From Thermoanaerobaculia bacterium (GTDB taxonomy: Bacteria > Acidobacteriota > Thermoanaerobaculia > Multivoradales > JBCCEF01), in NCBI GenBank assembly GCA_036259255.1, contig DATACC010000271.1, positions 1-62,187 on the forward strand: a stretch of DNA of 62,187 nucleotides. Direction: 5' to 3'. Made by a program: the position numbers and the translations under genes. The notes beneath the pieces were generated by a model. It made no database searches. It had not been told where the DNA came from and saw only the letters and a list, made by a program, of their open reading frames with translations. Shown in pieces: positions 10,901 to 54,972 of this stretch. Position 1 is the stretch's first letter. Each line of letters opens with the position of its first letter.

Positions 10901-11511
10901 GATTCGAGCAGGCCGTTCTGCCACTCGGCGAGGTCGGCGTACTGCATCGGCTCCTCGTCGTCCCCGGCCGCGGCGGCGGCATCCTCCGGCGCCGCCTCGC
11001 GAACCAGCTCGCGCACCAGGGCCTCCAGGCCGGCGCGGTCGAGGTGGAGCGGCGAGGCGCTCAGCACCAGCAGCCCGTGGCCGGGAGCGAGCCGGGCGAG
11101 GCACACCCGCAGAGGCGGGCCAGCCTCTGCCATGCCGCCGTCCGCCACGCCCTCCCCGTCGAGGAACTCGCCGCGGGCTTCGGCGAGGAGCCGGTCGACG
11201 GCGGCGGCGCGGTCCTCCACGGGCAGGGTTTGGAGATCGCGCTCCTCGACCTCCGGCACCCGGGCGGGAGCGACCGCCTGGAGCGGCATCGTCAGGCCCG
11301 GGAAGGAGCGCAGCTCGGTGCGCAGGATCTCGTGGCGGCCACCGACCACGGCCAGCGCGCGCCGCAGGAGTGCTGCGTCCAGCTCCCCCTCCACGTCGAA
11401 GGCCCGCAGAACCCGCCCGGGGCTCCGGTGCCGGCCGAGGTGCCAGGCGCGGCGCTGCTGGGGAGAGAGGCGGAACCCGCCCCCGCCCGCCGTCGTCGGC
11501 TCGCTACCCAT
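7978..11511 (-). CDS. NRPS: interface (dead C) domain-A(Asp)-PCP
   Basis: Start MGSEPTT...GFRLSPQQ at 11511 with GGAG RBS (track ORF over-extended). C-like domain has SPLHLDRAG instead of HHxxxDG. A code DLTKVGHVGK (TFAADLGHT, CLKIVPSH, NHYGPTETTVG). PCP FFDLGGHSL. Confidence 0.92.
10047..10091. repeat. 15-bp tandem repeat x3 (SPGEP/SAGEP/SPGEP)
   Basis: tcggttctccggggc / tcggctctccggcgc / tcggttctccggggc. Confidence 0.85.
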
Positions 11512-11525
11512 GGTGGACTCCTGGC

Positions 11526-17179
<5,654 letters not shown>

Positions 17180-17183
<4 letters not shown>

Positions 17184-18268
17184 CGCGCCGACCCGACCGT
17201 TTCCAGCCCGAGGCCCCGCGCCGCGGCGTCGGACTCCTCCCGCGAGCACGGCTCGGCCATGCCGACCACCACCAGCCGCTCGCCGGCGTAGGGCTGGCGG
17301 GCGTGGGCCACCGCCATGTTGTCGAGCATCAGCACGTCGCCCTCCTGCCAGGGAAAGACGATGGTCTCCTCCTGGTAGAGCCGGCGCAGATCGTCGAGAA
17401 CCTCCGCCTCGATGGGGGTACCGTCGCCGTAGTAGGTGTTGTAGGGCAGGTCCTCCTCCGGGAACTCGGCGAGCAGCGACTCGCGCACCTGGGGATCGAG
17501 GGTCGAGACGTGGAAGAAGGTGGCGTGGTTGAACCACGCCGGCTCGCCGGTGCGCGGATTGACCGCCACCGCGTCGCGGACCTGCCGGGTGCGCAGCCGG
17601 TCGCCGCCCTTCCACTCGGTCTCGATGCCCTTGTCGCGGCAGTAGCGGTCCACCTCCGCCGGGTCGTCGGTCTGGAAGGCGTTCTGCCAGCGCAGGCCGA
17701 AGCCGTCGTTGTAGTTGCGCACGTAGAGCACCTTGCGCTCGGCGAAGCGCTGGCGCACCGCCGGGTCCACCCGCTGGTAGATCCGGCAGGTGTCGGCGAT
17801 GGGCGTCTCGCCGCCGCGCTCCGGCGCCTTCAGGCAGCAGAAGTAGATCTTCAGCGGCCAGGTCACCCAGTAGGTACCCTCGTTGTGCAGGAAGATCCGC
17901 TGGTCCGACGGGTAGTCCGTGGAGGTGTACACCTGCTCGCCGACCTCGTGGCGAGGCGACGAGCGGTCCCGGTACTCGAGGCGTTCGCCGTCGGAGCTGG
18001 CCTCGACGAAGCCCTGGAACTCGTCCACGGTGCGCACGCCGAAGCCGCGAAACAGCAGCGCCCGGTGGGCGAGCAGCAGCTCGTCGACCTGGCGCCGGTT
18101 GCTGTGCGCCCAGGCGGCCAGGTCCATGCCCGGCACCGAGGGCTCCACCAGCACCGGCATGGGGCGGTCGGCCAGGAGCGGCCGTGTGCGCACCAGTGCC
18201 TCCTCCGACACGCTTACCGTCTTGCGCCGCAGGGCGCCGAAATCCTTCAGGCTCGGTAGGTTGTTCAT
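17180..18268 (-). CDS. Stand-alone TauD/TfdA-family Fe(II)/2-oxoglutarate dioxygenase (amino-acid beta-hydroxylase, SyrP-like)
   Basis: YTSTDYP...IFLHNEG...GGETP...WFNH...WQEGDVLMLDN...AHARQPY. AGGAG RBS before the ATG at 18268; alternative ATG at 18283 overlaps the upstream stop. Confidence 0.92.
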
Positions 18269-26000: not shown

Positions 26001-26333
26001 TGCACCGTCGCGCAGCAGCTCGGCGATGCGCTCGGCGGTGGGCTCCTCGGCGGCGGCGGCCGCGGCCGTCTCGTCGCTCCAGGCGGCGGCGCCGGATTCG
26101 GCCATGGCCTGCACGGGGAAGCGCATGCCCGGCAGGCGGTGGAAGCTGGTGCGCAGGATCTCGTGGCGCGCCACCACGCCGTCGAGGGCCCGGGCCAGCG
26201 CGGCGGGCACCACCTCCCCTTCCAGCAGCACGGCGCAGCGGGCGCCGTAGGCACCACCCTCGCCACGCCACGCCTGCCAGGCCCGTCGCTGCTGCGGCGA
26301 CAGTCGAAATCCCTGCAGATCCTCGAACGACAT
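23052..26333 (-). CDS. NRPS: interface domain-A(Asp)-PCP
   Basis: MSFEDLQGFRLSPQQ with GGAG 6 nt upstream (alternative starts 26351, 26369). Dead C motif LPPVCADSR. A code DLTKVGHVGK. PCP FFELGGHSL. Confidence 0.9.
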
Positions 26334-26365: not shown

Positions 26366-28015
26366 TCACGACGTCAGCTTCCAGCTCCGCACCTCGTCCA
26401 CCAGCTCCGCCAGGTAGCCCTGCTGGAGCGCCGCCTTCTCCTCCGCGGGGACCGAGGCGATCTCCAGCGTCAACATGCGGTTGGCGCGCTCCATGTACCG
26501 CTTGAACTGATCGAGGGAGACACCCTTGCCGAGCAGGTAGGGGATGTACCAGAAGTCGAAGGACCACTGGGGCAGCCACTGGGAATCCTCGATGGTGAGG
26601 ATCATCCGCTCGATATGGTCCATCGCCTCGAGGCTGTCCATCGAGTCGTGGGTCCACACGAAGCCGTCGCCCGTGATGCCGTACTTTTCCTTCTGCTGGT
26701 GGATCGGAGTACCGGCTTCGTTGTACCACATTTGCGCACGGAAGTAATCCACCTTGTTCTCGCGGATGAACTCCACCGTCTCGGCCACCGTGGCGGCGCT
26801 CTCGCCGGGGAAACCGACGATGAACGAGCCGAAGGTGAGGATGCCGTGGCGGCGCAGCATCTCGATGCCGCGGCGGTAGTGGTCGGCGCTCGCCTTCTTG
26901 TTCATGTTCTCGAGCACCGACGGCGAGCCCGACTCGATGCCGAGGAAGACCCCCTTGCAGCCGCTGGCGGCCATCAGCTCCACCGCCTCCTCGTCGGAGT
27001 TGCTGCAACGGAAGTAGGAGAACCAGTTGAAGCCGTACTGCTTGCGGATCATCAGCCGGCAGATGTCCTTGAAGCGCGGCAGGGGCACGTTGAAGGTGTC
27101 GTCGATGAACACCACGTTGCGCACGTTGCCCCGGGCGTGCATCGAGTCGAGCTCGCGCTCGATGGCCTCGAGGCTCGCCAGGGTGAGCTTTCCGGCCCGG
27201 GTGGGGTAGTTGCAGAAGGCGCACTTGAAGGCGCAACTGCGTGCCGTGCGGGTCTGGAGGGTGGCACCGAGATCGTCGCTCGACAGCTCCAGCCAGTCGA
27301 TGGTGTGTTCCTCGAGGGAGTTGCCCTCCGGCTCCACCGGGTTGGTGACGAGAGCGCCGTCGGCATCGAAGTAGAGGATGTTGGGCACGGCGGATAGGTC
27401 GCCGCCGGCGGCCAGGGCCTCGACGATGAGCCCCAGGGTGTGCTCGCCCTGGGAGTCGTTGACGTAGATGTCGGCCCCCAGGTCGCGCAACGCGGAGGTC
27501 AGCTCCTCGCCGGAGTAGTTGCGGGCGTGGTTGGCGATCAGCGGCCCGCCGACGACGATGGGCACCCGCTCGTTGTGCTCGCGGATGAACTCCACCATCT
27601 CGTTGACCGGGAAGTTCCAGACGTAGAAGGTGGTGGTGATGGCGACGCAGCCCGGGTCGCCGGCGAGCAGCTCGGCCAGCCGGTCCTTCTCGTACTGGAA
27701 CAGGTTCACGTAGTCGGCGCTGCGGCCCCGGCGCCGCAGCGCGTTGGTCAGGTAGGCGGCGGCGAGGTTGGGAATCTCCCCCGACTTGAAGGGCGCCGCG
27801 CCCACGCCGTCGCCGCCGCCGTGGGCGCGCTCCCAGGCGAAGTTCATCAGGTCGACGTAGTTGAGCTTGCAGCCGTCGATCTCGACGAAGCTGGTCTTCA
27901 AGTCACGGTACGCCTCGGAGTCCTCGCCGTACTGGCGCAGCAACCCCGCATAGCGCTCGAAGGGTGGGTCGTTGTACCCGATCACCACGCAGTCCAACCG
28001 GTTTCGCGTCGTCAT
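26366..28015 (-). CDS. Cobalamin-dependent radical SAM methyltransferase, PhpK/BcpD-like, 549 aa
   Basis: CAFKCAFC (CxxxCxxC) followed by FIDDTFN, GIESG, FIVGFPGE. N-terminal B12-binding-like region (PNLAAAYL, AITTTFY, IVVGGP). The N-terminus DCVVIGYN...AYRDL resembles the PhpK family as I recall it. Confidence 0.85.
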   Translation of the reverse strand: MTTRNRLDCVVIGYNDPPFERYAGLLRQYGEDSEAYRDLKTSFVEIDGCKLNYVDLMNFAWERAHGGGDGVGAAPFKSGEIPNLAAAYLTNALRRRGRSADYVNLFQYEKDRLAELLAGDPGCVAITTTFYVWNFPVNEMVEFIREHNERVPIVVGGPLIANHARNYSGEELTSALRDLGADIYVNDSQGEHTLGLIVEALAAGGDLSAVPNILYFDADGALVTNPVEPEGNSLEEHTIDWLELSSDDLGATLQTRTARSCAFKCAFCNYPTRAGKLTLASLEAIERELDSMHARGNVRNVVFIDDTFNVPLPRFKDICRLMIRKQYGFNWFSYFRCSNSDEEAVELMAASGCKGVFLGIESGSPSVLENMNKKASADHYRRGIEMLRRHGILTFGSFIVGFPGESAATVAETVEFIRENKVDYFRAQMWYNEAGTPIHQQKEKYGITGDGFVWTHDSMDSLEAMDHIERMILTIEDSQWLPQWSFDFWYIPYLLGKGVSLDQFKRYMERANRMLTLEIASVPAEEKAALQQGYLAELVDEVRSWKLTS

Positions 28016-28046: not shown

Positions 28047-31000
28047 TCAGGCCGAAGCGTGGTGCAGCTCGGCGCAGCGCACGGTGTCGACGGAGACCAT
28101 GTCGCCCATGGCCACCAGGATCTTGCGGGGGCCGGCGAAGGGGTACCGGCCGTGGGCGGTCAGCATGTTGTCGACCAGTACCAGGTCCCCCTTCTGCCAC
28201 GGGAAGGTCACCGCGTTGCGGCGGTACAGCTCGACGATCTCCAGCACCAGCTCGTCGGGAATCGGCGAGCCGTCGCCGAAGTAGACGTGGCGCGGCAGGT
28301 CCTCGACAGCGAACAGCTCGAGCAGCGGACCCCGATCCTCCTCCGGCAGGCAGGCGATGTGATGGGCCTGGATCTGGTTGAAGAACACCTTGGCCCCGGT
28401 GCGCGGGTGGCGGGCCACCGCCGGGCATACCTTGCGGGTGCGCAGGCCGCCGTCGGCCTTCCACTCGCACGCGATGTCGGAGCGCCGGCACCAAGCCTCC
28501 ACCTCCGCCCGGTCGGAGGTGTGGAAGAAGTCGCGCCAGTCGACGTCGAGGCCCGGCGTGTAGTTGCGCACGTACATCACGCCGAGCCGCTCGAAGCGGT
28601 CCCGCACCTCGGCATCGAGCAGCTCGTAGATGCGGCGGCAGTCGACCAGGGGCGTCTCGCCTCCTTCGAGCGCCGGCTGCACGCAGAGGAAGAGCTGGCG
28701 CAACGGCCAACTGTCGAGCTGGGAGCTCTCGTTGTGGAACCAGATGGTGCGGTCTGGCGGATAGGGGGTGGAGGTGTAGACCTTTCCCGTCACCGCGTCG
28801 TGGGGCAGGTCGCCGTACTCGTCGAACAGCTCGCCGGCCACCGCCTTGGCCACTGCCTCGAACCGCTCGGCGGTGTCGACGCCGAAGCCGCGGAACAGCA
28901 CTGCCCCGTGCTCGTGGAGCCGGGCTTCGAGCACCTCGTGGTTGCCCGCCACCCACTCCGCGAGGTCCACCGCCTCGGCAGCCGGCCGCACCATCAGCGG
29001 CGCGGCGGCACCGGGCACACCGGGGAGCGGCTCCATCTCGACCAGCCGGCTGCGCGAGAGCTGGACGGCCGCCGGCTCCACGTTCATGAACTTGGCGAAG
29101 TCCGCCTGCTTGCGCTGCTTCTTCTCGGTCACGTCTTGCTTCCTTTCGCTCTCGGCGAGATGTTCGAGCTGGCTCAACCGCGCCCCCGGCCGCTCGGCGA
29201 CGCTCGCCAGCAGCGTCGTGAGGTGCCGCGTCAGGGTGCGGATGCCGGGGGCATCGAAGAGGTCGGTGCTGTACTTCCAGGTGGCCTCGAGGCCGTCGCC
29301 GGTCTCGACCAGTACCAGCACCAGGTCGAATTTCACGGTGCGGTTGTCGATCTCCAGCGCCTCGAGCTCGAGCCCCGGCAGCTCGAGGCGCCGGCGGTCC
29401 GGGTTCTGCAGCACCAGCAGGTACTGGAACAGCGGCGCCCGGCCGGCGGTGCGCTCGGGCTGCAGCTCCTCGACCAGGCGCTCGAAGGGCAGCTCCTGGT
29501 GGGTGAAGGCGCCGACGGCGACCTCCCGCTCGCGGGCCAGCAGGTCGCGGAACGTCGGATCGCCGGCAAGGTCGGTGCGCAGCACCAGGACGTTGACGAA
29601 GAAGCCGATGAGCCGCTCCGTCTCCACCCGGTTGCGGTTCGCCACGTCGGTGCCGATGGCCACGTCCTCGACTCCCGTGTAGCGGTGCAACAGGGCCTTG
29701 AAGGCGGCGGCGAGCACCATGAACAGGGTCGCCCCCTCCGCCCGCCCGAGGTCGCGCAGGGCACGGGTGAGCTCGGCCGTCAGCCGGAAGCTGTGCTGCG
29801 CGCCGCCGTAGGACGGCCGCTCCGGCCGAGGGCGGGCGAAGGGGAGCTGGAGCTCCGGCGGCGGCGTGGCGAGGCGGCGCCGCCAGTAGGCCAGGTGGCC
29901 CTCGAGCACGTCGCCGGTGAGCCAGCGGCGCTGCCATGCGGCGTAGTCGGCGTACTGCACCGGCAGCGCTGGCAGCGGCGAAGGCTCGCCGCGGGAGAAC
30001 GCCGCATAGAGGACCGCCAACTCCTGCGTCAGGACGCCCATCGACCAGGCGTCGCTGACCACGTGGTGGATGTCGAACAACAACAGGTGTTCGGCCGGAT
30101 CGCGATGCACCAGGGCGGCGCGCAGCAACCGGCCCGCCGCGAGATCGAAGGCCCGGCGGCCCCAGCGCCGCAGCAGGCGCTCGGATTCCGCCGCCGCGAC
30201 AGGCTCCGGCACGCTCCCGAGATCGATCCTCGGCAGCGGCACCGGCCGTGCCGGCTCCACCACCTGAAACGGCTCGCCACCGGCCTCCCGGAGACTCGTG
30301 CGCAGCGCCTCGTGACGACGAACGATCTCTGTCAGCGCCCGCTCCAGGGCGGCTGCGCCGGTGGCCCCCAGGGGGCCGCGAAGCCGCAGCGCCCGCGGCA
30401 CATTGAAGGCGCAGCTCTGGGGATCGAGCTGCTGGAGGAACCACAGGCGCTGCTGGGCGAAGGACAGCGGCAGACGCCCACGACGCCCCACCGGAACCAG
30501 GGGTGGAGCGGCACCCCGCTCGCCGGCGCCGAGGGCGGTCTCGACCCGCCGGGCCAGGCCGGCCAGGGTGGCGTCCTCGAACAGCGTGCGCAGCGGCAGC
30601 TCGATGCGGAACGCCTCCTGAATCCGGGCGGCGAGGCGGGCGGCCAGCAGGGAGTGGCCGCCGAGAGCGAAGAAGTCGTCGGCGGGGCCAATCTGCTCGA
30701 CGCCCAGGATCCGGCTCCAGATCGTCGCCAGCAGCGCCTCCACCGGACCCAGGGGCCGGTCTCCCCCGCCGCTCGCCGACGCCTGCTCGGGCTGCGGCAG
30801 GGCGGCGCGGTCGAGCTTGCCGGTGCGGGTGCGGGGCAGGCCAGGCAGCGCCACGAACCAGGAGGGCACCAGGGCCTCCGGCAGGTGTCGGCGCGCGAGC
30901 TCGCGCAGCGCCGCGGGCGCCGGCTCGTCGCGCCCCGCCGGCACCCAGTAGGCTGCCAGCGCCTCGCGCACCGGCACCACCGCCACCTCCCGCACCGCCG

Positions 31001-33797
31001 GGTGGGCGGCGAGCACCGCCTCGATCTCGTCGAGCTCCACCCGGACGCCGCGCACCTTGACCTGGCGGTCGCGGCGGCCGAGAAACTCGAGCTCGCCGCC
31101 GCCCCCCCAGCGCACGAGGTCGCCGGTGCGGTAGAGCCGCGCCCCCGGCGTCCCGCCGGGAAACGGATCGGGCAGGAACCGCTCGGCGGTGGCCGCCGGC
31201 CGGCGGTTGTAACCGCGGGTCACCCCGGCGCCGGCGATGGCCAGCTCGCCGGCCACTCCCACCGGCAGCGGAGCGCCCCCCGCGTCGAGCACGTAGAAAC
31301 GCACGTTCTGGATCGGCCGCCCGATGGGCGCCGGACCGCCCTCCCCCGCCGCCGCCGGCAGGCGCCAGAAGCTGGAGGTCATGGTGCATTCGGTGGGGCC
31401 GTACTGGTTGACCACCGCGACGGCGGGGCCGAACAGGCGGCAGGCGGCGGCGCCGTCGGCCCGGTGGAGGACCTCCCCGCTCAGCACCAGAGTGGCCAAC
31501 GGCACCCACGGCAGCTCCCCCTCCGGCACCGAGCGCACCAGCTCCCGGAACAGGGTCGGTACCATGCCGAGCACCGTGTCGACGCCGTGGCGCCGCAGGG
31601 CCGCCAGCAGGGCCCGTGGATCCCGCGCCTCGGCCTCGGCCGGCAGCACCACCCGGCCGCCGGCCGCCAGCGGGCCCAGGGTGTCGCGGATCGAAGCGTC
31701 GAAGAACGGCGCCGCCACCTGGAGCACCACGCTGTCGGGGCCAACGCCGTACTCGCGCAGCACGAAGTCGAGGTAGTTGGCGGCGCCGCCGTGGGTGCTG
31801 AGCACGCCCTTCGGCCGGCCGGTGGTGCCGGAGGTATAGGTGACGTAGGCGAGGCCCGCGGGGTCGACCCGGACCTCGGGCCGGTCCTCCGGCGCCGCCG
31901 CCAGGAGGGCCGCATCGCGGTCGAGGAGGACTACCGCCCGCCCGGCCGAGGCGGCGGCGGGCAGGGCGGCCAGCAGGCGCTCCTCGCTCACCAGCACCCG
32001 GGCTCGGGCGTCGTCGAGCACGAAGGCGAGCCGCTCCCCCGGCGCCGCGAGGTCCAGCGGCAGGGCGGCACCGCCGGCCTTGAGCACGGCGAGCAGGGCG
32101 GCGACCAGGTTCGGACCGCGCTCCAGGGCCAGGGCCACCGGCACCTCCGGGCCGACCCCGAGGCGGCGCAGGTGGTGCGCCAGGCGGTTGGCCCGCCGGT
32201 CCAGCTCGCCGTAGGGCACGGTGACCTCACCGGCCACCAGGGCCACCGCCTCGGGCCGGCGCGCCGCCTGCTCCTCCACCCGGCGATGCAGGCCGGCCTC
32301 GGGCAGGTTTCCGCCGGACAGGGATACGTCGGGCAGGGCTTCGCCGGACCGAGCCTCGCCGGGAAGGGGCCGGGCGGTATCGTTGAAACCTTCCAGCACC
32401 AGCCGCCGCTCGGCCTCGCCGAGCAGCGCCAGGGTGGTGGCGGCGGCCTGTGGGCGGCGGACGGCGTCGGCGATCAGGGCGCTCCAGCCGGCGGCCAGCC
32501 GCTCGGCCGTGGCAGCGTCGCAGCGCGCCGGGTCGAAGCGCAGCGCGGCGGCGAGACCGTCGCCCCGGCGTCGGCACACCAGCTCCACCGCGAAGGGCTC
32601 GCCGAGCACCCGCTGCTCGAGCACCGCCACCCGCAGGTCCCGGACCACCGTCTCCGGCGCCCACTCGTCCCAGGCAAAGCCGGTGGACAGGCGCAGCGGC
32701 CCGTCGCCCTGGCCGGCGGCACCGGGGGCCTCCGGGTCGAAGGAGGTCTGCCAGCCGTCGGCCTCGCGGGCGGTGGCGGCGAGGCGGGCGGCAAGGGTGC
32801 CCAGGGTGGCGCGCGGATCGATCCCCACGCGCGTCGGCAGGCAGCGGGCGAAGGGACCGAGACCGTGGCGCAGATCCTCGTGGGGGCGGCCGTCGGCGGC
32901 GCGGCCCAGCACCACCTCGTCCTCGCCGGAGCGGCGCGCCAGCAGCAGCGCCCAGGCGGCGGCGGCGACGGCCGGCAGCGGCGCTCCGGCCGCCGCGGCG
33001 AGGGCCTCCAGGCCGGCCCGGGTGTCGGCGGCGAGGTCTACGGTCACCGTGTCCACCGCCCCCGTGTCTTCCGCCCCCGTGCCCGCGGCCCCCGTGCCCA
33101 CCGCCCCGGCTACGGCTCCGGCCTCGCCCCGGCCGGCGAAGGGGAAGGCCTGGAGCGGCAAGGAGGCGAGGCCGAGGCCGCGCCAGTACGCCTGCGCCTC
33201 GGGGGCGGGCTCGTCTTCGAGCAGCTCGTTCTGCCACTCGGCGGCGTCGGCGTACTGCAGCACCTCGTCGTCGTCACCCCCGCCCTGGTTCGGCTCCGCG
33301 TACTCCCGGACCAGCTCGCCGGCCAGCAGGCGCAGGCTCCAGCCGTCGGCGCACAGCGCCGGCCAGCCGAGCAGCAGGGCGTGCCGGCGCTCGCCCAGGG
33401 CGACGAGCACCGCGCGGGGCACCAGGGCGGCGGCGCCGGGGCGGGCGTCCTCGCCGAGGCGGCGCTGCAGCTCGGCGCGCTGCTCGCCGGCGGCGAGGGG
33501 GGCGAGGTCCGCCGTCTCCAGGGCCGGCGTTTCGAGGGCCGGTGTTTCGGGGGCCGAGCCGCCCACCTCGCCGATGCGTTGCACCGGCAGCCGCACCCCG
33601 GGCATCCGTTCGAAGCCGGTGCGCAGGATCTCGTGGCGCGCGACGACCCGGCCGAGAGCCGCGGCGAGACGGGCGCGGTCGAGCTCGCCGTCGAGCCGGA
33701 GCACGAGCTGGGCGCGGCACGGGGCGCCCTCCTCGTGCAGCCGCCACAAGCGGCGCTGCTGCGGCGACAGCCGGAAGCCTTGCAGAACCTCGGTCAC
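28047..33797 (-). CDS. NRPS: interface domain-A(unassigned)-PCP-C-TauD dioxygenase, 1916 aa
   Basis: GTG start VTEVLQGFRLSPQQ. Dead C motif WPALCADGW. A code about DARGVSQMTK. PCP GGHSL. C HHVVSDA. C-terminal TauD with WFHNES...GGETP...DNMLTAHGRYPF. Confidence 0.92.
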   Translation of the reverse strand: MTEVLQGFRLSPQQRRLWRLHEEGAPCRAQLVLRLDGELDRARLAAALGRVVARHEILRTGFERMPGVRLPVQRIGEVGGSAPETPALETPALETADLAPLAAGEQRAELQRRLGEDARPGAAALVPRAVLVALGERRHALLLGWPALCADGWSLRLLAGELVREYAEPNQGGGDDDEVLQYADAAEWQNELLEDEPAPEAQAYWRGLGLASLPLQAFPFAGRGEAGAVAGAVGTGAAGTGAEDTGAVDTVTVDLAADTRAGLEALAAAAGAPLPAVAAAAWALLLARRSGEDEVVLGRAADGRPHEDLRHGLGPFARCLPTRVGIDPRATLGTLAARLAATAREADGWQTSFDPEAPGAAGQGDGPLRLSTGFAWDEWAPETVVRDLRVAVLEQRVLGEPFAVELVCRRRGDGLAAALRFDPARCDAATAERLAAGWSALIADAVRRPQAAATTLALLGEAERRLVLEGFNDTARPLPGEARSGEALPDVSLSGGNLPEAGLHRRVEEQAARRPEAVALVAGEVTVPYGELDRRANRLAHHLRRLGVGPEVPVALALERGPNLVAALLAVLKAGGAALPLDLAAPGERLAFVLDDARARVLVSEERLLAALPAAASAGRAVVLLDRDAALLAAAPEDRPEVRVDPAGLAYVTYTSGTTGRPKGVLSTHGGAANYLDFVLREYGVGPDSVVLQVAAPFFDASIRDTLGPLAAGGRVVLPAEAEARDPRALLAALRRHGVDTVLGMVPTLFRELVRSVPEGELPWVPLATLVLSGEVLHRADGAAACRLFGPAVAVVNQYGPTECTMTSSFWRLPAAAGEGGPAPIGRPIQNVRFYVLDAGGAPLPVGVAGELAIAGAGVTRGYNRRPAATAERFLPDPFPGGTPGARLYRTGDLVRWGGGGELEFLGRRDRQVKVRGVRVELDEIEAVLAAHPAVREVAVVPVREALAAYWVPAGRDEPAPAALRELARRHLPEALVPSWFVALPGLPRTRTGKLDRAALPQPEQASASGGGDRPLGPVEALLATIWSRILGVEQIGPADDFFALGGHSLLAARLAARIQEAFRIELPLRTLFEDATLAGLARRVETALGAGERGAAPPLVPVGRRGRLPLSFAQQRLWFLQQLDPQSCAFNVPRALRLRGPLGATGAAALERALTEIVRRHEALRTSLREAGGEPFQVVEPARPVPLPRIDLGSVPEPVAAAESERLLRRWGRRAFDLAAGRLLRAALVHRDPAEHLLLFDIHHVVSDAWSMGVLTQELAVLYAAFSRGEPSPLPALPVQYADYAAWQRRWLTGDVLEGHLAYWRRRLATPPPELQLPFARPRPERPSYGGAQHSFRLTAELTRALRDLGRAEGATLFMVLAAAFKALLHRYTGVEDVAIGTDVANRNRVETERLIGFFVNVLVLRTDLAGDPTFRDLLAREREVAVGAFTHQELPFERLVEELQPERTAGRAPLFQYLLVLQNPDRRRLELPGLELEALEIDNRTVKFDLVLVLVETGDGLEATWKYSTDLFDAPGIRTLTRHLTTLLASVAERPGARLSQLEHLAESERKQDVTEKKQRKQADFAKFMNVEPAAVQLSRSRLVEMEPLPGVPGAAAPLMVRPAAEAVDLAEWVAGNHEVLEARLHEHGAVLFRGFGVDTAERFEAVAKAVAGELFDEYGDLPHDAVTGKVYTSTPYPPDRTIWFHNESSQLDSWPLRQLFLCVQPALEGGETPLVDCRRIYELLDAEVRDRFERLGVMYVRNYTPGLDVDWRDFFHTSDRAEVEAWCRRSDIACEWKADGGLRTRKVCPAVARHPRTGAKVFFNQIQAHHIACLPEEDRGPLLELFAVEDLPRHVYFGDGSPIPDELVLEIVELYRRNAVTFPWQKGDLVLVDNMLTAHGRYPFAGPRKILVAMGDMVSVDTVRCAELHHASA
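33048..33107. repeat. 15-bp imperfect tandem repeat x4 within interface domain
   Basis: cgtgtccaccgcccc / cgtgtcttccgcccc / cgtgcccgcggcccc / cgtgcccaccgcccc. Confidence 0.8.
33513..33557. repeat. 15-bp imperfect tandem repeat x3 (APET/PALET/PALET)
   Basis: cgtctccagggccgg / cgtttcgagggccgg / tgtttcgggggccga. Confidence 0.8.
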
Positions 33798-33804
33798 GGC
33801 GCCC

Positions 33805-36800
33805 TCAGGCCTCCAGCTCGCTCAGCCGCACGACACCGCCGCCCATCGCCACCAGCACCCGCCGCGGCGGGGTGAACGGCATGCGGCCGTGGGCGGTCAG
33901 CGTGTTGTCCAGCATCAGCACGTCGCCCTTCTGCCACGGGAAGGAAACCATTGAGTCGCGCACCACCTGGCGCACGTGCTCGAGCTCCGCCGGGTCCAGG
34001 GGCGAGCCGTCGCCGAAGTAGGCGTTGATCGGCAGCTCCTCCTCCGAGGTGGTGGCGAGCAGGGCGTCGGCGAGGTCGCCGAGGTTCGACGGGTGCCACT
34101 GGTCGACCTGGTTGAACCACACGGGCTCGCCGGTCTTCGGATGACGGATGGTGGCCGGACGCACCTGGCGGGTGGTCAGGCCGCCGTCGTCGCGCCAGCG
34201 GAAATCGATGCCGCCCTCGCGGCAGTAGGCCTCCACGGTGTCGCGGTCGGCGGTCTCGAACACCGTCTGCCACGACAGGCCGGCGCCGCGGTCGCCGTGC
34301 AGGTTGCGGGTGTAGAGGACGCCCTTCTCGGCGAAGCGGCTGCGCACCGCCGGGTCGATCTGCTGCCACACCTTGCGGCTGTCGGCGATCGGCGTCTCGC
34401 CGCCCTGCTGCGGCTCGACGTCGCAGTAGAAGAAGATCTTGCTCGGCCACTTGTGGGCGTAGGACAGCTCGTTGTGGAGCGACACGAAGTACTCCGCCGG
34501 GTACTCGGTGGAGGTGTAGACCTTGTCGCCCACCATCACCCGCGGCGACGAGCCCTCGACGTAGTTGGCGAGCTCCGGCGTCACCGTGTTGACGAAGCTC
34601 TCGAAGGCCGCGGGCGAGGCGACGGCGAAGCCGCGAAACAGGATGCCGCCGTGGACCAGCAGATCCCGCTCGACCTGCTCGGTGTTGCTGCGCACCCAGG
34701 CGGCGAGGTCCACGTCGTCCAGGTTGGGCCGCAGCACGAGGGGCAAGGTCGAGCCGTTGAGCGCTTCGCGGCGCACCAGCTCGTCCTGCGCGAGGTTGAC
34801 GCTGCGGCGCCTGGTGATCTTGAGCTTCTTCAAGTTGGAGGTGCTCACTTCGTCCTGCCTGCTCATTCGCTTCTCCGTTTCTCGGGTGCTGAGGGCGTCC
34901 ACCAGGACGCCGAGACGGGTATCGGGGGCGGTGACGGCGCGCTCGGCCAGCACCAGCAGCTCCTCGCGCAGCCGCGCCATGGTGGCTGCCTCGAAGAGGT
35001 CGGTCTTGTACTCGAAGGCGCCGGCCAGCCGGTCGCCGGCCTCCCCCATGTAGAGGGTGAAGTCGTACTTGGCCGTGCCATGCCGGACCGGCAGCCGCTC
35101 CAAGGTGAGCCCCGGCAGGGCAGCGGGGTCGGCGGGCGCGGCGTTCTGGTAGTTGAATACCACCTGGAACACCGGGCTATGGCCCGGATGGCGCTCGGGC
35201 CTGAGCTCCTCGACCAGCTTCTCGAAGGGCAGATCCTGGTGCGCGTAGGCACCCAGGGTGGTCTCGCGCACACGCGCCAGCAACTCACGGAACGTCGGAT
35301 CGCCGGACAGGTCGGTGCGCAGGGCCAGGGCGTTGATGAAGTAGCCGATCATGCCGTCGAGCTCCGGCCGGCTGCGGCCTGCCACTGGCGCGCCGACCAC
35401 CAGATCGAGCTGCCCGGTGAGGCGGTGGAGCAGCACCTGGAGCACGGCGAGCAGCACCATGAACGGGGTCGCTCCCTCGCGGCGGGCGAGCTCGCGCACG
35501 CGGGCCGACGACTCGGGCGTCAGGGCCACCGGCTCGATGGCCCCGCGGGCGCTCGGCCGTGCCGGGCGCGCCCGGTCGGTGCGCAGGTCGAGCACCGGAA
35601 GCGGCGGCGCGAGACGCCGGCGCCAGTAGCAGAGCTGGGCCGCCAGCAGATCCCCGGTGAGGTATCGGCGCTGCCAACCGGCGAAGTCGGCGTACTGGAT
35701 CGGCGGTTCCGGCAGCGGCGAAGGCCGCCCTGCCACGAAGGCCCCGTAGAGGGCCGCCAGCTCGCCGATCAGCACGCCCGCCGACCACTGGTCGCCGACG
35801 ATGTGGTGCATCGTGAACCAGGCGGCGTGTTGCTCGGCAGCCAGGCGCACCAGCAGCGCGCGCACCAGGGGGCCCCGGGCGAGGTCGAAGGGCCGCCGCG
35901 CATCGCGAGCGGCCGTGAGCAGCATCTCGGGCCGGCGACGCCCTGCCGGCAGGGCGGTGAGGTCCACCCACGGCAGCGGCCAGCGGCCCGGGGGCGCCAC
36001 ATGCTGCACCGGACCCTCGCCGAGCAGCGGAAAGCTGCTGCGCAGCGACTCGTGGCGACGCACCGTCTCGTCGAGGCTGCGCTGCAGCGCGCGGGTGTCG
36101 AGCCAGCCGGTCAGGAGCAAGCCGGCAGACTGGTTATAGAGCGGCGCGTCGGGCTCCAGGCGAGCCAGGAACCACTGGCGCTCCTGAGCGAAGGACAGCG
36201 GCAGGTCGCCGTCCCGCGGCAAACGCTCGATGGGCGGCAGCAGCGCGTCTCCACCGCCACCGAGCTGCGCCACGTGGGCCGCAATCCCGGCCACGGTGGG
36301 CTGCGCGAACAGCGTCGCGGGGGGCAAGTCCACGGCGAGCGCGGCGCGCAGCTCGCCGATCAGGCGCAGGGCGAGCAGCGAGTGGCCGCCGAGCTCGAAG
36401 AAATCATCGTCCAGGCCCACCCGGTCGATGCCCAGCAGCCGCTGCCAGATCTCCGCCACCGCCCGCTCGGTGCCGTCGCGCGGCGCCACGTAGACCGTCG
36501 ACAGGTCCGGCCGCGGGTAGGCCCCGGACGACGCGGCCCCAGGCGACGCGGCCCCGGTCAACGCCGCCCCGGCCGCTGCGGCGGCCCCTACGGTCCCGCC
36601 GCCGGCGACGTGGCCGAGCGGATCCACCACCACCTCGCACCCTCCGTCCCACGCCAGAACCCGGTGAAGAACCTCCACCGCATGCTCGGGCTCGACCGGG
36701 ACGCCGGCACTCCCCAGCCAGTGGATCGACACGGTGGGTCCGGCGCCCCGGGCGCTGCGGGCGTGGGCTGCGGCGTCGAGGGCCGCACCCGCGGCGGCGG

Positions 36801-39800
36801 CCACGAGGGGTTGCACGGCGAGCGGCCCGAGCATTGGGCCAGCGGTGGCCGCGGGAGCAGAGGCTGAATCCGGAGACCAGAAGGCCAGGAAATCGAGCTC
36901 CCCGCCGCCCAATGCCTCGCTCAGAACGGCGGCGCCCCGCACTCTGGCGGCATACGCCCGCTCGGCCTCGTCCCTGCCCTTGCCCGCGTCCTCGCCCTCG
37001 CCGTCCAGCGGGCCGTTCACGGCCTCGCCGGCGGCGTGCACGGCGCCGTGGATCGAGCCGAAGCTCTCCCGCGCCCGGGCCACCACCGCCGACACCTGCT
37101 CGGGGCTGGTGACGTCGGCGGTGGCGGTGAGCACCGCGGCACCGAGAGCCTCGAGCTCCTGCACCCGGCCCGGAGGCGCCGGGAACCGGTCGACGAGCAC
37201 CAGCCGCGCACGGACCCGGCGCGCCAGGCCGCGAGCGACGGCGAGGCCCGTCTCGCCCCACGCACCGGTGACCATGTAGACACCCCGCCCACGCAGCACC
37301 GCGCCGCCGGCGGCCTCGTCGAACGGCCCCGCGACGAGCTCGCGAACCCAACGGCGGCCGTGGCGGTAGGCCACTACCGGATCAGCGGGCGGGGCGGTCA
37401 TCTCGGCGGCGAGTCTGTCGGCAGCCAGCCCGTCGTCGGTCGCCATTCCGCCGGCGACCTCCGGGCCGAGGTCCACCGCCTGGCAGGTGAAGCCCGGCAG
37501 TTGGCCGGGGATCGCCGCGCAGGCTCCGAGCACCGCCACCTGCTCCGCCGTGAGGTCCTCGTCGCCGAAGACCGGCCGGGCGCCGGCGGTGAGCACCCGC
37601 AGGTCGATCGGCGCGCCGGAGGCGGCGGGATCGACGTTCGCGGCGAGCACCTGGACGAGGAGCAGCAGGCTGTCGAGGCCCGGAGGGAGGGGACCGTCCC
37701 CCGCCGCCTCCCGCCGGCCGCAGGACGCCGCAGCACCGAGGCCGCTGGCGTGGACCACGGTGCTCGGCATGTCTCCGGCAGCCCGCAGCACGGCCATCAA
37801 CCGGTGGTGGTCGGCGAGCCGGCGGAGATCCATCCGGTAGCGATGCTCCCCGGCCGCGGTGAAGCCTTCCCCGGCCACCACCGAGACCACTCGCCGCCCG
37901 GTCTCGCGCAGACGCCGCACCAGCGCGGCACCGACGCCGGAGGCATCCTCCACCACCAGCCAGGTGCCGGTGTCCTCGCCGGCCGGGCGCGGCCGGGGCG
38001 ACACCGTCTGCCGCCACACCGGGACCCGGATCCGGTCCGCCGGCCGGCGGTGCTCCGGCGCTGCCGGCACCGGGGAGGCGGCGGCCCGGGAGTCCTCGAT
38101 CCAGTAGCGGCGCCCTTCGAAGGGGTAGGTGGGCAGCGGCACCCGCCGGCGCCGGCGCCGGTCGTGGAAGGCGGTCCAGTCCACCCGCGCGCCGGCCAAC
38201 CACAGGCGGCCCAGCGTCGCCAGCAGGTGCCGGTGGACCGAGGCTCCCGGGGCCCCCTGCGGCAAGCCGGCGAGCGCGCCCGCGGCCTCGGCGCCCGGCC
38301 CCAGGGAACCGCCCGACCCCACCTCGAGAAGCACGGCCCCCATCTGCTGCAGGCTCTCCCAGGTGCCCTGGGGCCAGGATGCCGGCCGACCTAGCCGGGC
38401 CGCCCAGGCCGCGGCATCGGTGGCCTCCTCCGGGGAGAGCCAGGTACCGGTGGCGCCGGACATCAGCCGCAACCGGGGGGGAGCCAGGCGCAGGCGGCGC
38501 AGCGCGGCCTCCGTGGGGCGGGCGACCACCGAAAGGGCCTCCTCCAGCGAGAGCACGCCAGCCACGCAGGCGGCCACGAGCTCCCCCACCCCCTGGCCGA
38601 CGACGCCCTCGGGCCGCAGCCCCCACGAGATCCACAGCCGCGCCAGGGCGTGCTGCACGACGAGCTGGACCGCGTCGAGCTGGATCGTGTCGCCGTCGCC
38701 GGCCGGCTCCGGGCCGCCGACGGGACCCCCGCCGTGGAGGACCGCCTGGAGGTCGATTCCGAGCAGCGGCCCCAGGATGCCGGCGCAACGGTCGATCTCG
38801 GCCCGCAGCACCGGCTCGGCGGCGGCCAGTTCTGCCGCCATCGCGGGGTACCCACCGCTCCGCCCCGGGAACAGGAAGACCACCGGCAGGTCGCTGCGCT
38901 CGGCGGTACCGCTCCAGGCGTGCTCCGGATCATCGCCCGCCAGGGCGGCCGCGCCGGCCGCGAGATCCGGGCAGAGAACCACGCGGCGGTGCCGCAGCTC
39001 CTGCCGCCCGACCTGCAGGGTGAAGGCGACGTCCTCGGGCGTCAGCTCCGGGTGGTCGAGCAGGTACCGGTGCAGGTTGGCGCTCGCCACCTGCAGCGCC
39101 ATCGGCGTGGCGGCGGACACTGGCAACAGGTGCCACGGCCGCGGCGGATGGAGATCCGGCGACGGCGGCGGCAGCACCGGCGCCTCCTCCAGGACGACGT
39201 GGGCGTTGGTGCCGCCGATGCCGAAGGAGCTGACCCCGGCCCGGCGCGGGCCCTCCCCCGGCCACGGGCGCAGCGTGGTGTTGACGTAGAAGGGGCTGGC
39301 GGCGAAGTCGATCGCCGGGTTGGGGGCCGAGAAGTTGAGGCTCGGCGGCAGCTCGCGGTGCTCCAGCGCGAGCACCGCCTTGATCAGCCCCGCCGCACCG
39401 GCGGCGCAATCGAGGTGACCGATGTTGGACTTCACCGAGCCCAGGGCGCAGAAGCCCCGGTCGGCCGTCCCGGCACGAAAGGCACGGTTCAGCGCCGCCA
39501 CCTCCAGGGGGTCCCCCAGGGGGGTGCCGGTGCTGTGGGCTTCGACCAGGGTGACGCTGCGCGGCTCCACCCCGGCGGTCGCCAACGCGGTGGCGATCAC
39601 CTCGGCCTGCCCCTCCTCGCTCAAGGCGGTGAACCCGGCCTTCTGCGCACCGTCGTTGTTGACTGCCGCGCCGCGCAACACCGCCCGCACGGAGTCGCCG
39701 TCGGCCAGCGCGTCCTCCAGCCGCTTGAGCACCACGATTCCCAGCCCGCTGCCGAAGACGCTGCCCCCGGCGTCGGCCGAGAAGGCGCGGCAGTGGCCGT

Positions 39801-40468
39801 CCGGCGACGCCAGGCCGCCCGGGCGGTGGAAGTATCCGGCGGTCTGGGGCACCCGCACCGCCACGGCGCCCGCCAGCGCCAGGTCGCACTGGTACGCCAG
39901 CAGCCCCTGGGCCGCCAGGGAAACCGCCACCAAGGCGGTGGAGCATGCGGTCTGCACCCCGATACACGGACCTCGCAGGTCGAGCCGGTAGGCGACCTGC
40001 GTGGCCAGGTAGTCCTTCTCGTTGCCGATCAACGTCTGCAGCGCCTCCAGGCCCTCCTGGGCCTTGGGGCCGGAGGCGAAGCGAAGCCAATAGGTGTTCA
40101 GCCGTGCTCCCGCGTAGACACCGATCCGCTCCCGGCAGCGCCGCGGGTCGTAGCCGGCATCCTCCAGGGCCTCCCAGGCCGACTCCAGGAACAACCGCTG
40201 CTGCGGGTCCATCAGCTCCGCCTCGCGCGGGCTGTAGCCGAACAGGGCGGCGTCGAACAGATCGATGTCGTCGAGCACCGGCGCCGCCTTGACGTAGGCC
40301 GGGTCCGCCAGCACCTCCGGCGGCACGCCGGCGGCGGCCAGCTCGTCGTCGGAGAACCGGCGCACCGACTCGACGCCGGCCGCCAGGTTGCGCCAGTACT
40401 CCCCGGCGTTGCGGGCACCGGGGAAGCGGCAGGCGAGGCCGACGATGGCGATACTGTCGAGCAGCTCG

Positions 40469-40476
<8 letters not shown>
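33805..40476 (-). CDS. PKS-NRPS hybrid: KS-AT(inactive)-KR(degenerate)-ACP-C-TauD dioxygenase
   Basis: Start MRDELLDSIAIVG at 40476. KS TACST/EAHSTGT/KSNIGH. AT GQGVG, with the catalytic Ser lost and the domain shortened. KR lacks the Lys/Tyr residues. Carrier GGHSL. C HHIVGDQ. TauD SLHNEL...DNTLTAHGRMPF. Confidence 0.92.

Positions 40477-54972
<14,496 letters not shown>

What the first reader, a model, noticed from the sequence alone, without database searches (positions are those of the whole stretch)
31370..31900. Adenylation domain with an unassignable pocket (about D-A-R-G-V-S-Q-M-T-K)
Seen: FFDASIRD, VLGMVPT (one-residue insertion before the 278 position), LVLSGE, NQYGPTECTMTS. The code matches no standard signature I know. 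Arg at 239 suggests an anionic side chain (Glu, aminoadipate, or a sulfonate/phosphonate amino acid). The module sits between two TauD domains and next to the PhpK-like gene, so a non-proteinogenic residue is plausible.
Basis: partly seen in the sequence, partly recalled or inferred. Interest (0 to 1): 0.68.

Follow-up and report, generated by a model that had tools for sequence, protein, structure and literature searches.

The report
Unassigned arginine-pocket adenylation domain, hydroxylase-coupled
This peptide-assembly domain has a real substrate pocket (D-A-R-G-V-S-Q-M-T-K) shared by a widespread, uncharacterised lineage of such domains and paired here with its own hydroxylase, so it probably supplies an unidentified hydroxylated, probably acidic amino acid, with no sign of a phosphonate.

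Summary
The gene is on the minus strand (28047..33797) and encodes Ci-A-T-C-TauD. Alignment to GrsA with verified 1AMU numbering gives DARGVSQMTK, and all catalytic motifs are intact.

The pocket is not a one-off. In a 134-domain tree, A3 sits in a supported clade of 28 domains that all carry D[A/S/P]R[S/A/G/H][L/V]S[Q/L]M[T/S]K. Arg239 is invariant in 34 of 34 codes. The family occurs in at least six phyla, including Saccharothrix, Streptomyces, Dactylosporangium, Mycoavidus and Dictyobacter. No paper or labelled set I could search assigns it.

All five readable TauD genes or domains at least 61% identical to the one just upstream of A3 precede a His-less C-like domain plus an A domain with this pocket. 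That TauD lineage is separate from those paired with Asp, His-like or Glu-type (AmbC/AmbD) pockets.

The pocket co-occurs in single assembly lines with canonical Asp, Asn, Ser, Thr, Gly and AmbE-type Glu pockets. Downstream C domains are LCL type in 14 of 14 cases. No precursor genes recur, and the genome lacks PEP mutase.

Best reading: an L-amino acid with an anionic or strongly polar side chain, hydroxylated on the carrier. Its identity is unresolved; Glu-like is my first guess. The phosphonate/sulfonate idea is not supported.

The parts
30783..32327 (-). Adenylation domain A3 (P0001 aa about 491-1005) with pocket DARGVSQMTK. Core motifs present: TSGTTGRPKG, NQYGPTE, YRTGD, GRRDRQVKVRG, PRTRTGKL.
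   Evidence: Pfam AMP-binding E 5.5e-80. TIGR01733 scores 411 bits against a cut-off of 317. Code from the GrsA alignment. Motifs. Member of the 28-domain DAR clade, SH-aLRT 96.
31374..31706 (-). Pocket-forming stretch from A4 to A5. D700/A701/R704 lie in FFDASIRD, G744 in VLGMVPT, V771/S773 in LVLSGE, and Q798/M806/T807 in NQYGPTECTMTS.
30807..30821 (-). A10 motif GKLDR, holding K994 (the K517 equivalent).
32388..33797 (-). N-terminal C-like domain Ci with no catalytic His pair (reads PALCADGWS where HHxxxDG is expected). It is an interface-type domain and the presumed docking site for the upstream TauD.
   Evidence: Pfam Condensation 131 bits, covering only profile positions 6-323. Motif. 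The His-less domains form their own clade at 99*.
33814..34740 (-). TauD-1, an Fe(II)/2-oxoglutarate oxygenase domain at the C-terminus of the preceding PKS-NRPS protein (33805..40653). It is the proposed hydroxylase of the A3-loaded residue. The HNE...H triad is intact.
   Evidence: Pfam TauD E 7.8e-45. Triad. It falls in its own clade, in which every member has a D[A/S]R-pocket partner.
34903..36216 (-). Catalytic C domain (HH motif) of the preceding protein. It should join the polyketide chain to the A3 residue.
30528..30752 (-). Carrier (T) domain of the module, with GGHSL at aa 1046-1050.
29118..30497 (-). Downstream C domain (HHVVSDA), LCL type. It passes the A3 residue on without epimerisation.
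28050..28997 (-). TauD-2 at the C-terminus of the same protein. It groups with TauDs whose partners are Asp pockets, so it is assigned to the next module (A4, Asp) and not to A3.
26366..28015 (-). B12/radical-SAM gene of the PhpK family. It is a neighbour, not a conserved partner of the DAR unit.
   Evidence: TIGR04479 scores 640 bits against a cut-off of 600. Absent from the G008, L150, L151 and L152 units. No PEP mutase in the genome.

Best explanation
A3 is an active amino-acid adenylation domain. It belongs to an old, widespread and so far uncharacterised specificity lineage whose pocket is D-[A/S/P]-R-[S/A/G/H]-[L/V]-S-[Q/L]-M-[T/S]-K.

Shown: the code, the intact motifs, membership of the lineage, the module architecture, and the co-variation with one TauD lineage.

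Inferred:
1. Arg239 has no acidic partner in the pocket, so it binds an anionic or strongly H-bond-accepting side chain of a readily available L-amino acid. My first guess is a Glu-like carboxylate. It is not the residue read by the canonical Asp pocket (DLTKVGHVGK) and probably not the one read by the AmbE-type Glu pocket (DSKDLGLVNK).
2. The residue is loaded on the module's T domain.
3. TauD-1, fused to the end of the preceding PKS protein, docks on the His-less C-like domain at the N-terminus of this protein. It hydroxylates the tethered residue, most likely at C-beta. This is the logic of potashchelin/cupriachelin-type C-TauD | C-A(Asp)-T units and of the AMB pathway (AmbC/AmbD acting on AmbE-bound Glu).
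4. The upstream C domain joins the polyketide chain to the residue, and the LCL-type downstream C domain passes it on as an L-residue.

Rough odds for the substrate class: anionic about 0.55 (Glu-like 0.25, Asp-derived including side-chain-activated 0.15, other acids 0.15); neutral polar such as Gln about 0.25; other about 0.2.
For: - Code and motifs.
- A3's nearest relatives by sequence (47-54% identity) share the pocket.
- In the 134-domain tree A3 sits in a clade of 28 that are all DAR type, SH-aLRT 96. Among 34 collected codes, R239 is present in 34, D235 in 34, Q322 in 30, M330 in 28 and S301 in 28.
- Named carriers occur in Actinomycetota, Pseudomonadota, Chloroflexota, Acidobacteriota, Gemmatimonadota and Hydrogenedentes.
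- Hydroxylase coupling: the window, L150 (83%), L151 (70%), Nonomuraea L152 (61%) and G008 (61%) all read TauD then A(D[A/S]R...), with a Ci domain detected between them in four of the five (not in L152). These five form a clade, 99/98 with their sister, split at 98/94 from all other TauDs.
- Architecture precedent: in potashchelin the C-terminal TauD acts on the adjacent downstream Asp module (PMC7100376). In the AMB pathway AmbC and AmbD hydroxylate carrier-bound Glu (PMC4357302 and PMC10880069).
- Basic pocket residues in acid-activating domains.
- Readily available substrate: no shared accessory genes and none at the visible cluster edge.
- L configuration: 14 of 14 downstream C domains fall in the LCL clade.
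Against: - No member of the lineage has a known substrate, so the chemistry rests on pocket logic and context alone.
- The pocket co-occurs with an AmbE-like Glu pocket in one protein (P0047/L076). TauD-1 is not related to the Glu hydroxylases AmbC and AmbD. Both points weaken the Glu guess.
- The nearest A-domain groups are Dab, Ser, Gln and beta-Ala types, not Glu types. The substrate could therefore be a neutral polar residue.
- I recalled microcystin R239 pockets from memory and could not verify them.
- That the TauD acts on the downstream module is inferred from conserved gene order and from published analogues. It is not shown here.
- Most family members have no TauD nearby, so hydroxylation is not intrinsic to the pocket.
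Confidence: 0.55

Rival explanations
1. A3 activates a phosphonate, phosphinate or sulfonate amino acid such as demethylphosphinothricin, AP3/AP4 or cysteate, and the PhpK-like radical-SAM neighbour acts on it.
For: Arg239 would suit such anions. The neighbouring gene passes the PhpK-family cut-off.
Against: The MAG has no PEP mutase (about 80% complete, and the contig is cut at both ends of the cluster). DAR modules are common in many phyla, with no shared accessory gene in the three neighbourhoods inspected. No rSAM lies in the four related TauD-Ci-A(DAR) loci. In the window the rSAM sits ahead of the next, Asp, module. A labelled cysteate domain has an Asp-like pocket, not a DAR pocket.
Confidence: 0.06
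2. A3 loads ordinary L-Asp through a non-canonical pocket. The unit would then be a variant of the classical integrated beta-hydroxy-Asp unit.
For: The C-TauD | interface-A-T architecture is known almost only for Asp and His. The sister of the TauD-1 clade lies in a cluster whose last module has an Asp-like pocket (L149). The lineage is nested among small-residue A domains. A labelled 3-OH-Asp domain uses a non-canonical K239 pocket.
Against: Three canonical Asp pockets sit in the same window, and canonical Asp pockets co-occur with DAR pockets in at least four lines. TauDs with Asp partners fall in other clades.
Confidence: 0.12
3. A3 activates the side-chain carboxyl of Asp or Glu, giving an iso-peptide link, and Arg239 holds the free alpha-carboxylate. 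ACVS handles aminoadipate this way, and from memory so do the microcystin MeAsp and Glu modules.
For: ACVS A1 reads E-P-R239. This reading would explain co-occurrence with canonical Asp and Glu pockets, the lack of precursor genes and the need for a separate TauD lineage.
Against: PvdL's gamma-Glu module uses R322 and not R239. The microcystin codes could not be verified. Nostocaceae A domains scored no better than Ser and Gln types against the family profile. D235 and A236 are in the normal alpha-amino register.
Confidence: 0.1
4. The substrate is a neutral polar L-amino acid, for example Gln, and Arg239 and Gln322 act as hydrogen-bond partners and not as a salt bridge.
For: The nearest A-domain groups are Ser, Gln and Dab types. 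Q322 is conserved in 30 of 34 codes. Co-occurrence with a canonical Gln pocket was seen at most once (L079), so Gln is not excluded.
Against: An invariant, uncompensated Arg is unusual for neutral substrates. Two TauD-coupled members have Leu at 322.
Confidence: 0.2
5. A3 is a degenerate or skipped domain with no substrate of its own.
For: Nothing specific. It has no close orthologue in 40 relatives.
Against: All core motifs, D235, K517 and the T-domain serine are intact. The pocket is conserved across phyla. A near-orthologous unit exists in L150.
Confidence: 0.02

Closest known systems
Integrated or stand-alone Asp/His beta-hydroxylase plus interface-domain units of NRP siderophores (IBH_Asp, TBH_Asp, IBH_His; cupriachelin, potashchelin, cyanochelin)
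   Same: The module order is C-TauD at the end of one protein, then a His-less C-like domain, A and T at the start of the next. The TauD is of the Fe/2-oxoglutarate type and acts on a carrier-bound residue. The same cluster has Asp and His-like units of this kind.
   Different: The A pocket is neither Asp (DLTKVGHVGK) nor His-like (DSAxxAEVWK). The partner TauD forms its own lineage. The published pHMMs for those classes were not available, so I could not test membership.
AMB (methoxyvinylglycine) pathway of Pseudomonas aeruginosa: AmbE (Q-A-MT-T1-C2-T2-TE) with AmbC and AmbD
   Same: TauD-family oxygenases hydroxylate an A-domain-loaded acidic residue on the carrier. AmbE's code also gave its authors no clear prediction. 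Relatives of the unit (G008 DAR, G013 DAKD) carry the same embedded FkbM-type methyltransferase.
   Different: AmbE's pocket reads DSKDLGLVN(K), with K239 and D278, not DAR. AmbC and AmbD fall in other TauD clades. AmbE's Q domain shows no detectable similarity to the Ci domain. A3 has no MT insert.
Glu-activating A domains with a basic residue at position 239 (DAKDLGVVDK type)
   Same: Asp235 and Ala/Ser236 are the same, position 239 holds a basic residue, and position 299 is Leu or Val.
   Different: R replaces K. There is no D278 or D331. Phylogenetically the two are not close. Both kinds occur side by side in one protein (P0047).
ACV synthetase module 1 (L-alpha-aminoadipate, E-P-R239)
   Same: Arg lies at position 239 of a pocket that takes an acidic amino acid.
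   Different: Position 235 is E and not D, and the rest of the pocket is unrelated. It activates the delta-carboxyl. No Aad supply genes are present here.

Membership tests
NRPS amino-acid adenylation domain (ANL superfamily) | Core motifs A3, A5, A7, A8 and A10, and a score above the curated model cut-off | tested here: met
   TSGTTGRPKG, NQYGPTE, YRTGD, GRRDRQVKVRG and PRTRTGKL are present. TIGR01733 scores 411 bits against a cut-off of 317. Pfam E 5.5e-80.
NRPS amino-acid adenylation domain (ANL superfamily) | Asp235 and Lys517 for an alpha-amino acid, followed by a carrier domain with the Ser motif | tested here: met
   D700 and K994. GGHSL at aa 1046.
Canonical Asp-specific pocket (DLTKVGHIGK) | Lys278 and His322 binding the beta-carboxylate | tested here: not met
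   A3 has G278 and Q322. Three true Asp pockets lie in the same window.
K239-type Glu pocket (DAKDLGVVDK; AmbE DSKDLGLVNK) | Lys239 paired with Asp278, and relatedness to Glu-type domains | tested here: not met
   A3 has R239 and G278. Its common ancestor with a DAKD domain spans almost the whole tree.
Siderophore-type beta-hydroxylase / interface-domain unit (Reitz et al. 2019 classes) | TauD with an intact Fe/2-oxoglutarate site placed directly before a C-like domain, A and T | tested here: met
   Precedent in PMC7100376.
Siderophore-type beta-hydroxylase / interface-domain unit (Reitz et al. 2019 classes) | Partner C-like domain lacks HHxxxDG and belongs to a separate C-domain clade | tested here: met
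   Motif PALCADG. The His-less domains form a clade at 99*.
Siderophore-type beta-hydroxylase / interface-domain unit (Reitz et al. 2019 classes) | Partner A domain specific for Asp or His, and hydroxylase within the IBH_Asp, TBH_Asp or IBH_His classes | tested here: not met
   The pocket is DAR type. TauD-1 is separate from TauDs with Asp or His-like partners. The published pHMMs themselves were not available.
Phosphinothricin-type phosphinate peptide system (PhsA/PhpK) | PEP mutase and a phosphonate pathway in the genome | tested here: not met
   TIGR02320 has no match in the MAG. Caveat: the genome is about 80% complete.
Phosphinothricin-type phosphinate peptide system (PhsA/PhpK) | PhpK-family radical-SAM methyltransferase | tested here: met
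   TIGR04479 scores 640 bits against a cut-off of 600. The gene is not conserved with DAR units elsewhere.
DAR-pocket A-domain lineage (defined here) | Monophyly together with an invariant Arg239 and the S301/Q322/M330/T331 constellation | tested here: met
DAR-pocket A-domain lineage (defined here) | Experimentally known substrate | not testable with these tools
   No labelled member was found.

The most novel reading that the evidence does not exclude
The DAR pocket selects an L-amino acid that is not on the usual NRPS list. Candidates are a side-chain-activated Asp or Glu, 2-aminoadipate, or a phosphorylated or sulfonated small residue. The TauD-1 lineage would then be a new class of carrier-dependent hydroxylase that, with the interface-like domain, makes a new hydroxylated building block. 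In this thiazole / OH-Asp / OH-His-like product that block might be metal-binding. The unit is used across several phyla.
Probability: 0.3. Interest if true: 0.72.

Novelty: new variant of a known kind. Interest (0 to 1): 0.55.

Why it matters
Genome mining predicts peptide structures from A-domain pockets. A pocket family present in many soil and symbiont genomes with no assignment is a blind spot for every one of those predictions.

The hydroxylase-plus-interface-domain logic is known so far for Asp and His in siderophores, and in another form for Glu in the AMB pathway. This work shows that it extends to at least one more substrate class with its own hydroxylase lineage.

Culturable carriers make the question directly testable. 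They include Saccharothrix, Streptomyces sp. BBFR51, Nonomuraea sp. NPDC049400, Dactylosporangium and Dictyobacter. One assay on one member would annotate the whole family.

Tried and rejected
- **Literature string searches.** I searched full 10-mers, 7-mers and spaced letters. There were no hits. Codes split across table cells, and supplements, are not covered.
- **PARAS supplement.** It holds no code table.
- **DeepAden supplement.** It holds labelled sequences, but the stored copy is truncated. It contains no FDAS?R or DAS?R motif and no AmbE.
- **AmbE as a DAR-type anchor.** Rejected. Four amb clusters read DSKDLGLVN.
- **Arg239 as the hallmark of side-chain-activated acids.** PvdL's gamma-Glu module uses R322. 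The microcystin codes I recalled could not be checked. A scan of 389 Nostocaceae genomes found only one truncated relic of the family.
- **Direct loading of D-Glu or D-Asp.** Not supported. All 14 downstream C domains are LCL type.
- **Orthologues in 40 related genomes.** None; the best match was 52% identical.
- **Homology between AmbE's Q domain and the Ci domain.** Not detectable.
- **Reitz et al. 2019 and the nodularin paper.** Neither is held in the library.
- **Structure prediction and docking.** Not run. The tools return no coordinates, so pocket geometry could not be examined.


Full report
**1. What is there**

The window is 75% G+C DNA. It holds one large hybrid PKS-NRPS cluster whose big genes all lie on the minus strand.

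Pfam gives Condensation, AMP-binding (aa 508-863), AMP-binding_C, PP-binding (1022-1085), Condensation and TauD (1605-1896). The plus-strand ORF over the same DNA has no hits.

I checked that my GrsA-PheA fragment is identical to PDB 1AMU residues 231-526. I then aligned the window's eight A domains to it.

| A domain | Pocket | Reading |
|---|---|---|
| A1 | DLTKVGHVGK | Asp |
| A2 | DLWNMSLIWK | Cys, with an oxidase insert |
| A3 (this finding) | DARGVSQMTK | unassigned |
| A4 | DLTKVGHVGK | Asp |
| A5 | DILQLGVIWK | Gly |
| A6 | DSALVAEVWK | His-like, with an FkbM methyltransferase insert |
| A7 | DLTKVGHVGK | Asp |
| A8 | DVENMGAITK | unassigned |

The domain looks functional. Motifs A3, A5, A7, A8 and A10 are intact, as are the T-domain GGHSL and the downstream HHVVSDA. 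It passes NCBIfam's adenylation-domain model, 411 bits against a cut-off of 317. Its best solved relatives are ordinary amino-acid-activating NRPS domains.

**2. Module architecture**

A tblastn domain map shows a repeated junction. A protein ends in a catalytic C domain, sometimes followed by TauD. The next protein starts with a second C-like domain (Ci), then A and T.

Around A3 the order is KS-AT-KR-ACP-C-TauD-1 | Ci-A3-T-C-TauD-2 | radical SAM | Ci-A4(Asp)...

In P0001 the Ci domain reads PALCADGWS in place of HHxxxDG. In a tree of 80 C-type domains the His-less domains form their own clade at 99*.

This is the layout published for potashchelin: FAAL-ACP-C-TauD | C-A(Asp)-PCP. There the C-terminal TauD is assigned to the adjacent downstream Asp module (PMC7100376). 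[quoted passage not shown] The curated metallophore rules recognise only Asp and His hydroxylase classes, and they note several unexplored clades (PMC12971057).

**3. The pocket is a family, not a one-off**

I extracted the A domains from the best database proteins. A3's closest relatives (47-54% identity) carry DARSVSQMTK, DARSLSQMTK, DARALSQMTK or DARALSQMSK. They sit in ordinary C-A-T modules.

A scan of one genome per species returned many named carriers:
- Mycoavidus cysteinexigens
- Streptomyces sp. BBFR51
- Dictyobacter arantiisoli
- three Dactylosporangium species (DARSLAQMTK)
- Kitasatospora and Micromonospora (DARSVS[H/Q][L/V]TK)
- Stackebrandtia
- MAGs of Chloroflexota, Acidobacteriota, Gemmatimonadota and Hydrogenedentes

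In a tree of 134 A domains, A3 lies in a clade of 28 that are all of this type, with no other type inside (SH-aLRT 96). Its weakly supported neighbours are Dab-type (DIWE[I/L]TADDK), then Ser, Gln and beta-Ala types.

Across 34 collected codes, D235 and R239 are invariant. S278 occurs in 27, L299 in 26, S301 in 28, Q322 in 30, M330 in 28 and T331 in 27.

None of 40 related genomes has an orthologue of A3 itself; the best match is 52% identical. The genome is a MAG of 4.07 Mb in 364 contigs, about 80% complete. The window is the whole of contig C271.

**4. Coupling to a dedicated hydroxylase lineage**

I tabulated TauD-Ci-A units in relatives. The partner pockets were:
- Asp (DLTKVGHVGK)
- Asn (DLTKVGEVGK)
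- His-like (DSAxIAEVWK)
- Glu-type (DAKDVGVVD, with an FkbM methyltransferase insert)
- DAR-type

Searching with TauD-1 alone found many free-standing relatives. For all five TauD genes or domains at least 61% identical whose context I could read, the next gene or domain leads to an A domain with the D[A/S]R pocket. A Ci domain was detected between TauD and A in four of the five, but not in L152.

| Source | Identity to TauD-1 | Partner pocket |
|---|---|---|
| Window | 100% | DARGVSQMTK |
| L150 (also follows a PKS-ACP-C) | 83% | DARSVSQMT? |
| L151, Thermoanaerobaculia | 70% | DSRSVSQMTK |
| L152, Nonomuraea sp. NPDC049400 | 61% | DARHLSQMTK |
| G008 (FkbM insert) | 61% | DARSLSLMT? |

A 55% relative named 'AmbD' in Dictyobacter lies beside an Asp-like module instead.

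In a 40-sequence tree:
- The five TauD-1 relatives form a clade, 99/98 with that Dictyobacter sister, split at 98/94 from everything else.
- TauD-2 groups with TauDs whose partners are Asp pockets.
- TauD-3 lies in a mixed clade near those with His-like partners.
- AmbD groups with a G013 TauD whose partner is DAKDVGVVD (94/97).
- AmbC lies elsewhere.

TauD-1 keeps the H-N-E...H triad and the 2-oxoglutarate Arg. The upstream modules differ between these loci (PKS, Asp-like, or a bare T-C). The downstream DAR module is the one constant. I therefore assign TauD-1 to the A3 residue and TauD-2 to the following Asp module. This assignment is an inference from conserved order and published analogues.

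**5. What the substrate is not**

*Phosphonate or sulfonate.* PEP mutase is absent from the MAG. Three unrelated DAR-carrying NRPSs share no accessory gene nearby. The visible cluster edge encodes a peptidase, MeaB, an acyl-CoA dehydrogenase and hypotheticals. The PhpK-family gene is not found in the four related units. A labelled cysteate domain has an Asp-like pocket.

*Ordinary Asp, Asn, Ser, Thr, Gly, Pro, Val, Cys, Dab or His-like.* Canonical pockets for each of these co-occur with DAR pockets in single assembly lines.

*Ordinary Glu as read by AmbE.* The AMB authors found AmbE's code unpredictable and showed L-Glu by PPi exchange and loading (PMC4357302; pathway summary in PMC10880069). 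I located four amb clusters in Pseudomonadaceae. AmbE reads DSKDLGLVN(K) and carries an FkbM-type methyltransferase. That pocket is a K239/D278 Glu type like G013's. An AmbE-like pocket and DARSLSQMTK sit in adjacent modules of one protein (P0047/L076). This argues against Glu but does not exclude it.

*Directly loaded D-amino acids.* All 14 C domains following DAR modules fall in the LCL clade (98*). None falls with the DCL references (99*) or the E domains.

**6. What the substrate probably is**

The pocket carries an invariant Arg at the floor position. It has no acidic residue at 278 or 331 that could neutralise it.

Labelled or well-established acid-activating domains also use basic pocket residues:
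- ACVS aminoadipate reads E-P-R239.
- A KtzN-like 'glutamic acid' domain decodes to DATRIGRVAK.
- PvdL's Glu module reads DVWHFGRINK.
- AmbE has K239.
- A labelled 3-OH-Asp domain has K239.

The first three pocket positions, D-A/S-R, parallel the Glu types D-A/S-K. The weakly supported sister lineage is the Dab pocket, which has acidic residues where DAR has R239 and T331. That fits a short side chain ending in the opposite charge.

The family is widespread and lacks supply genes, which points to a common metabolite. I therefore favour an L-amino acid with a carboxylate-type side chain. Odds:

| Substrate class | Odds |
|---|---|
| Glu-like | about 0.25 |
| Asp-derived, including side-chain activation | about 0.15 |
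| Other acids | about 0.15 |
| Neutral polar such as Gln | about 0.25 |
| Anything else | about 0.2 |

**7. Comparison with what is known, and novelty**

A3 works like the known TauD/interface/A-T hydroxylation units and like the AmbC/AmbD-AmbE system. It fails the defining features of the Asp, His and AmbE-Glu versions in both pocket and hydroxylase clade.

I found no paper containing the pocket strings. I rate it a new variant of a known kind: an unassigned but conserved specificity lineage, plus an additional hydroxylase lineage for the interface-domain logic.

Its anionic-substrate idea remains the best guess. Its phosphonate/sulfonate link to the PhpK-like gene is not supported.

**8. Limits**

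- No biochemical data exist for any family member.
- The labelled dataset I could read was truncated.
- Several code readings in other loci come from pairwise BLAST alignments. These can shift in the Asp-type clade, which is the likely source of the 'NT-K...' readings.
- TauD substrate assignments by gene order are inferences.
- The MAG is incomplete and the contig ends inside the cluster at one end.

Noticed in passing
window 46619-47866, 32388-33797, 25032-26324, 15846-17192, 10114-11478 (all minus strand): Five His-less C-like (interface-type) domains each open an A-T module. Two of them, before Asp modules A1 and A7, have no TauD fused upstream. The MAG has further free-standing TauD genes on contigs C47 and C192 that could serve them.
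   Followed up: partly
window 26366-28015 (-): The B12/radical-SAM gene scores above NCBIfam's PhpK P-methyltransferase family cut-off (640 against 600 bits), although the genome has no PEP mutase. It sits between TauD-2 and the Ci-A4(Asp) gene and is not conserved in related loci.
   Followed up: partly
L050 and L051 (G013:C91): Two TauD-Ci-A(DAKDVGVVD)-FkbM-MT-T units sit inside large multimodular NRPSs of a genome in the same order. They look like AmbE-type hydroxylate-then-O-methylate Glu modules outside Pseudomonas.
   Followed up: partly
L166-L169 (four Pseudomonadaceae genomes; G506:C1 about 2.94-2.96 Mb): The amb clusters read AmbB DLYNNALTYK and AmbE DSKDLGLVN(K). AmbE's embedded methyltransferase is FkbM type (PF05050). 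AmbE's N-terminal Q domain (aa 1-466) has no Pfam hit and no detectable similarity to the interface-type domain.
   Followed up: yes
L150 (ENA ERZ25039586 contig_36577): A metagenome contig carries what looks like an orthologous stretch: PKS-ACP-C-TauD (83%)-Ci-A(DARSVSQMT?)-T-C. The gene calls are fragmented, suggesting assembly frameshifts.
   Followed up: partly
L066/P0091, L072, L080, L081, L084, L085: In actinomycetes the DAR module is preceded, directly or with a Gly module between, by another unassigned pocket that has Asp at position 236 (DDVQ[I/V]SQIDK or DDVR..A[V]TK). This may be a conserved di- or tripeptide motif.
   Followed up: no
L202 (G862:C42:3930-5606): The only DAR-like domain found in 389 Nostocaceae genomes (DSRSLAQMTK) is an N-terminally truncated A-T fragment among CHAT/TPR and regulatory genes. 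It is probably a relic.
   Followed up: yes
window 95-1612 (-) and 13310-15815 (-): A8 reads DVENMGAITK, with an acidic residue at 239 that suggests a basic substrate. A6 reads DSALVAEVWK with an FkbM methyltransferase insert. Neither was studied further.
   Followed up: no
L170 (G506:C1:2756000-2772500): PvdL's Glu module reads DVWHFGRINK. It has a pocket Arg at position 322, so the basic residue is placed differently from position 239 as in ACVS.
   Followed up: yes
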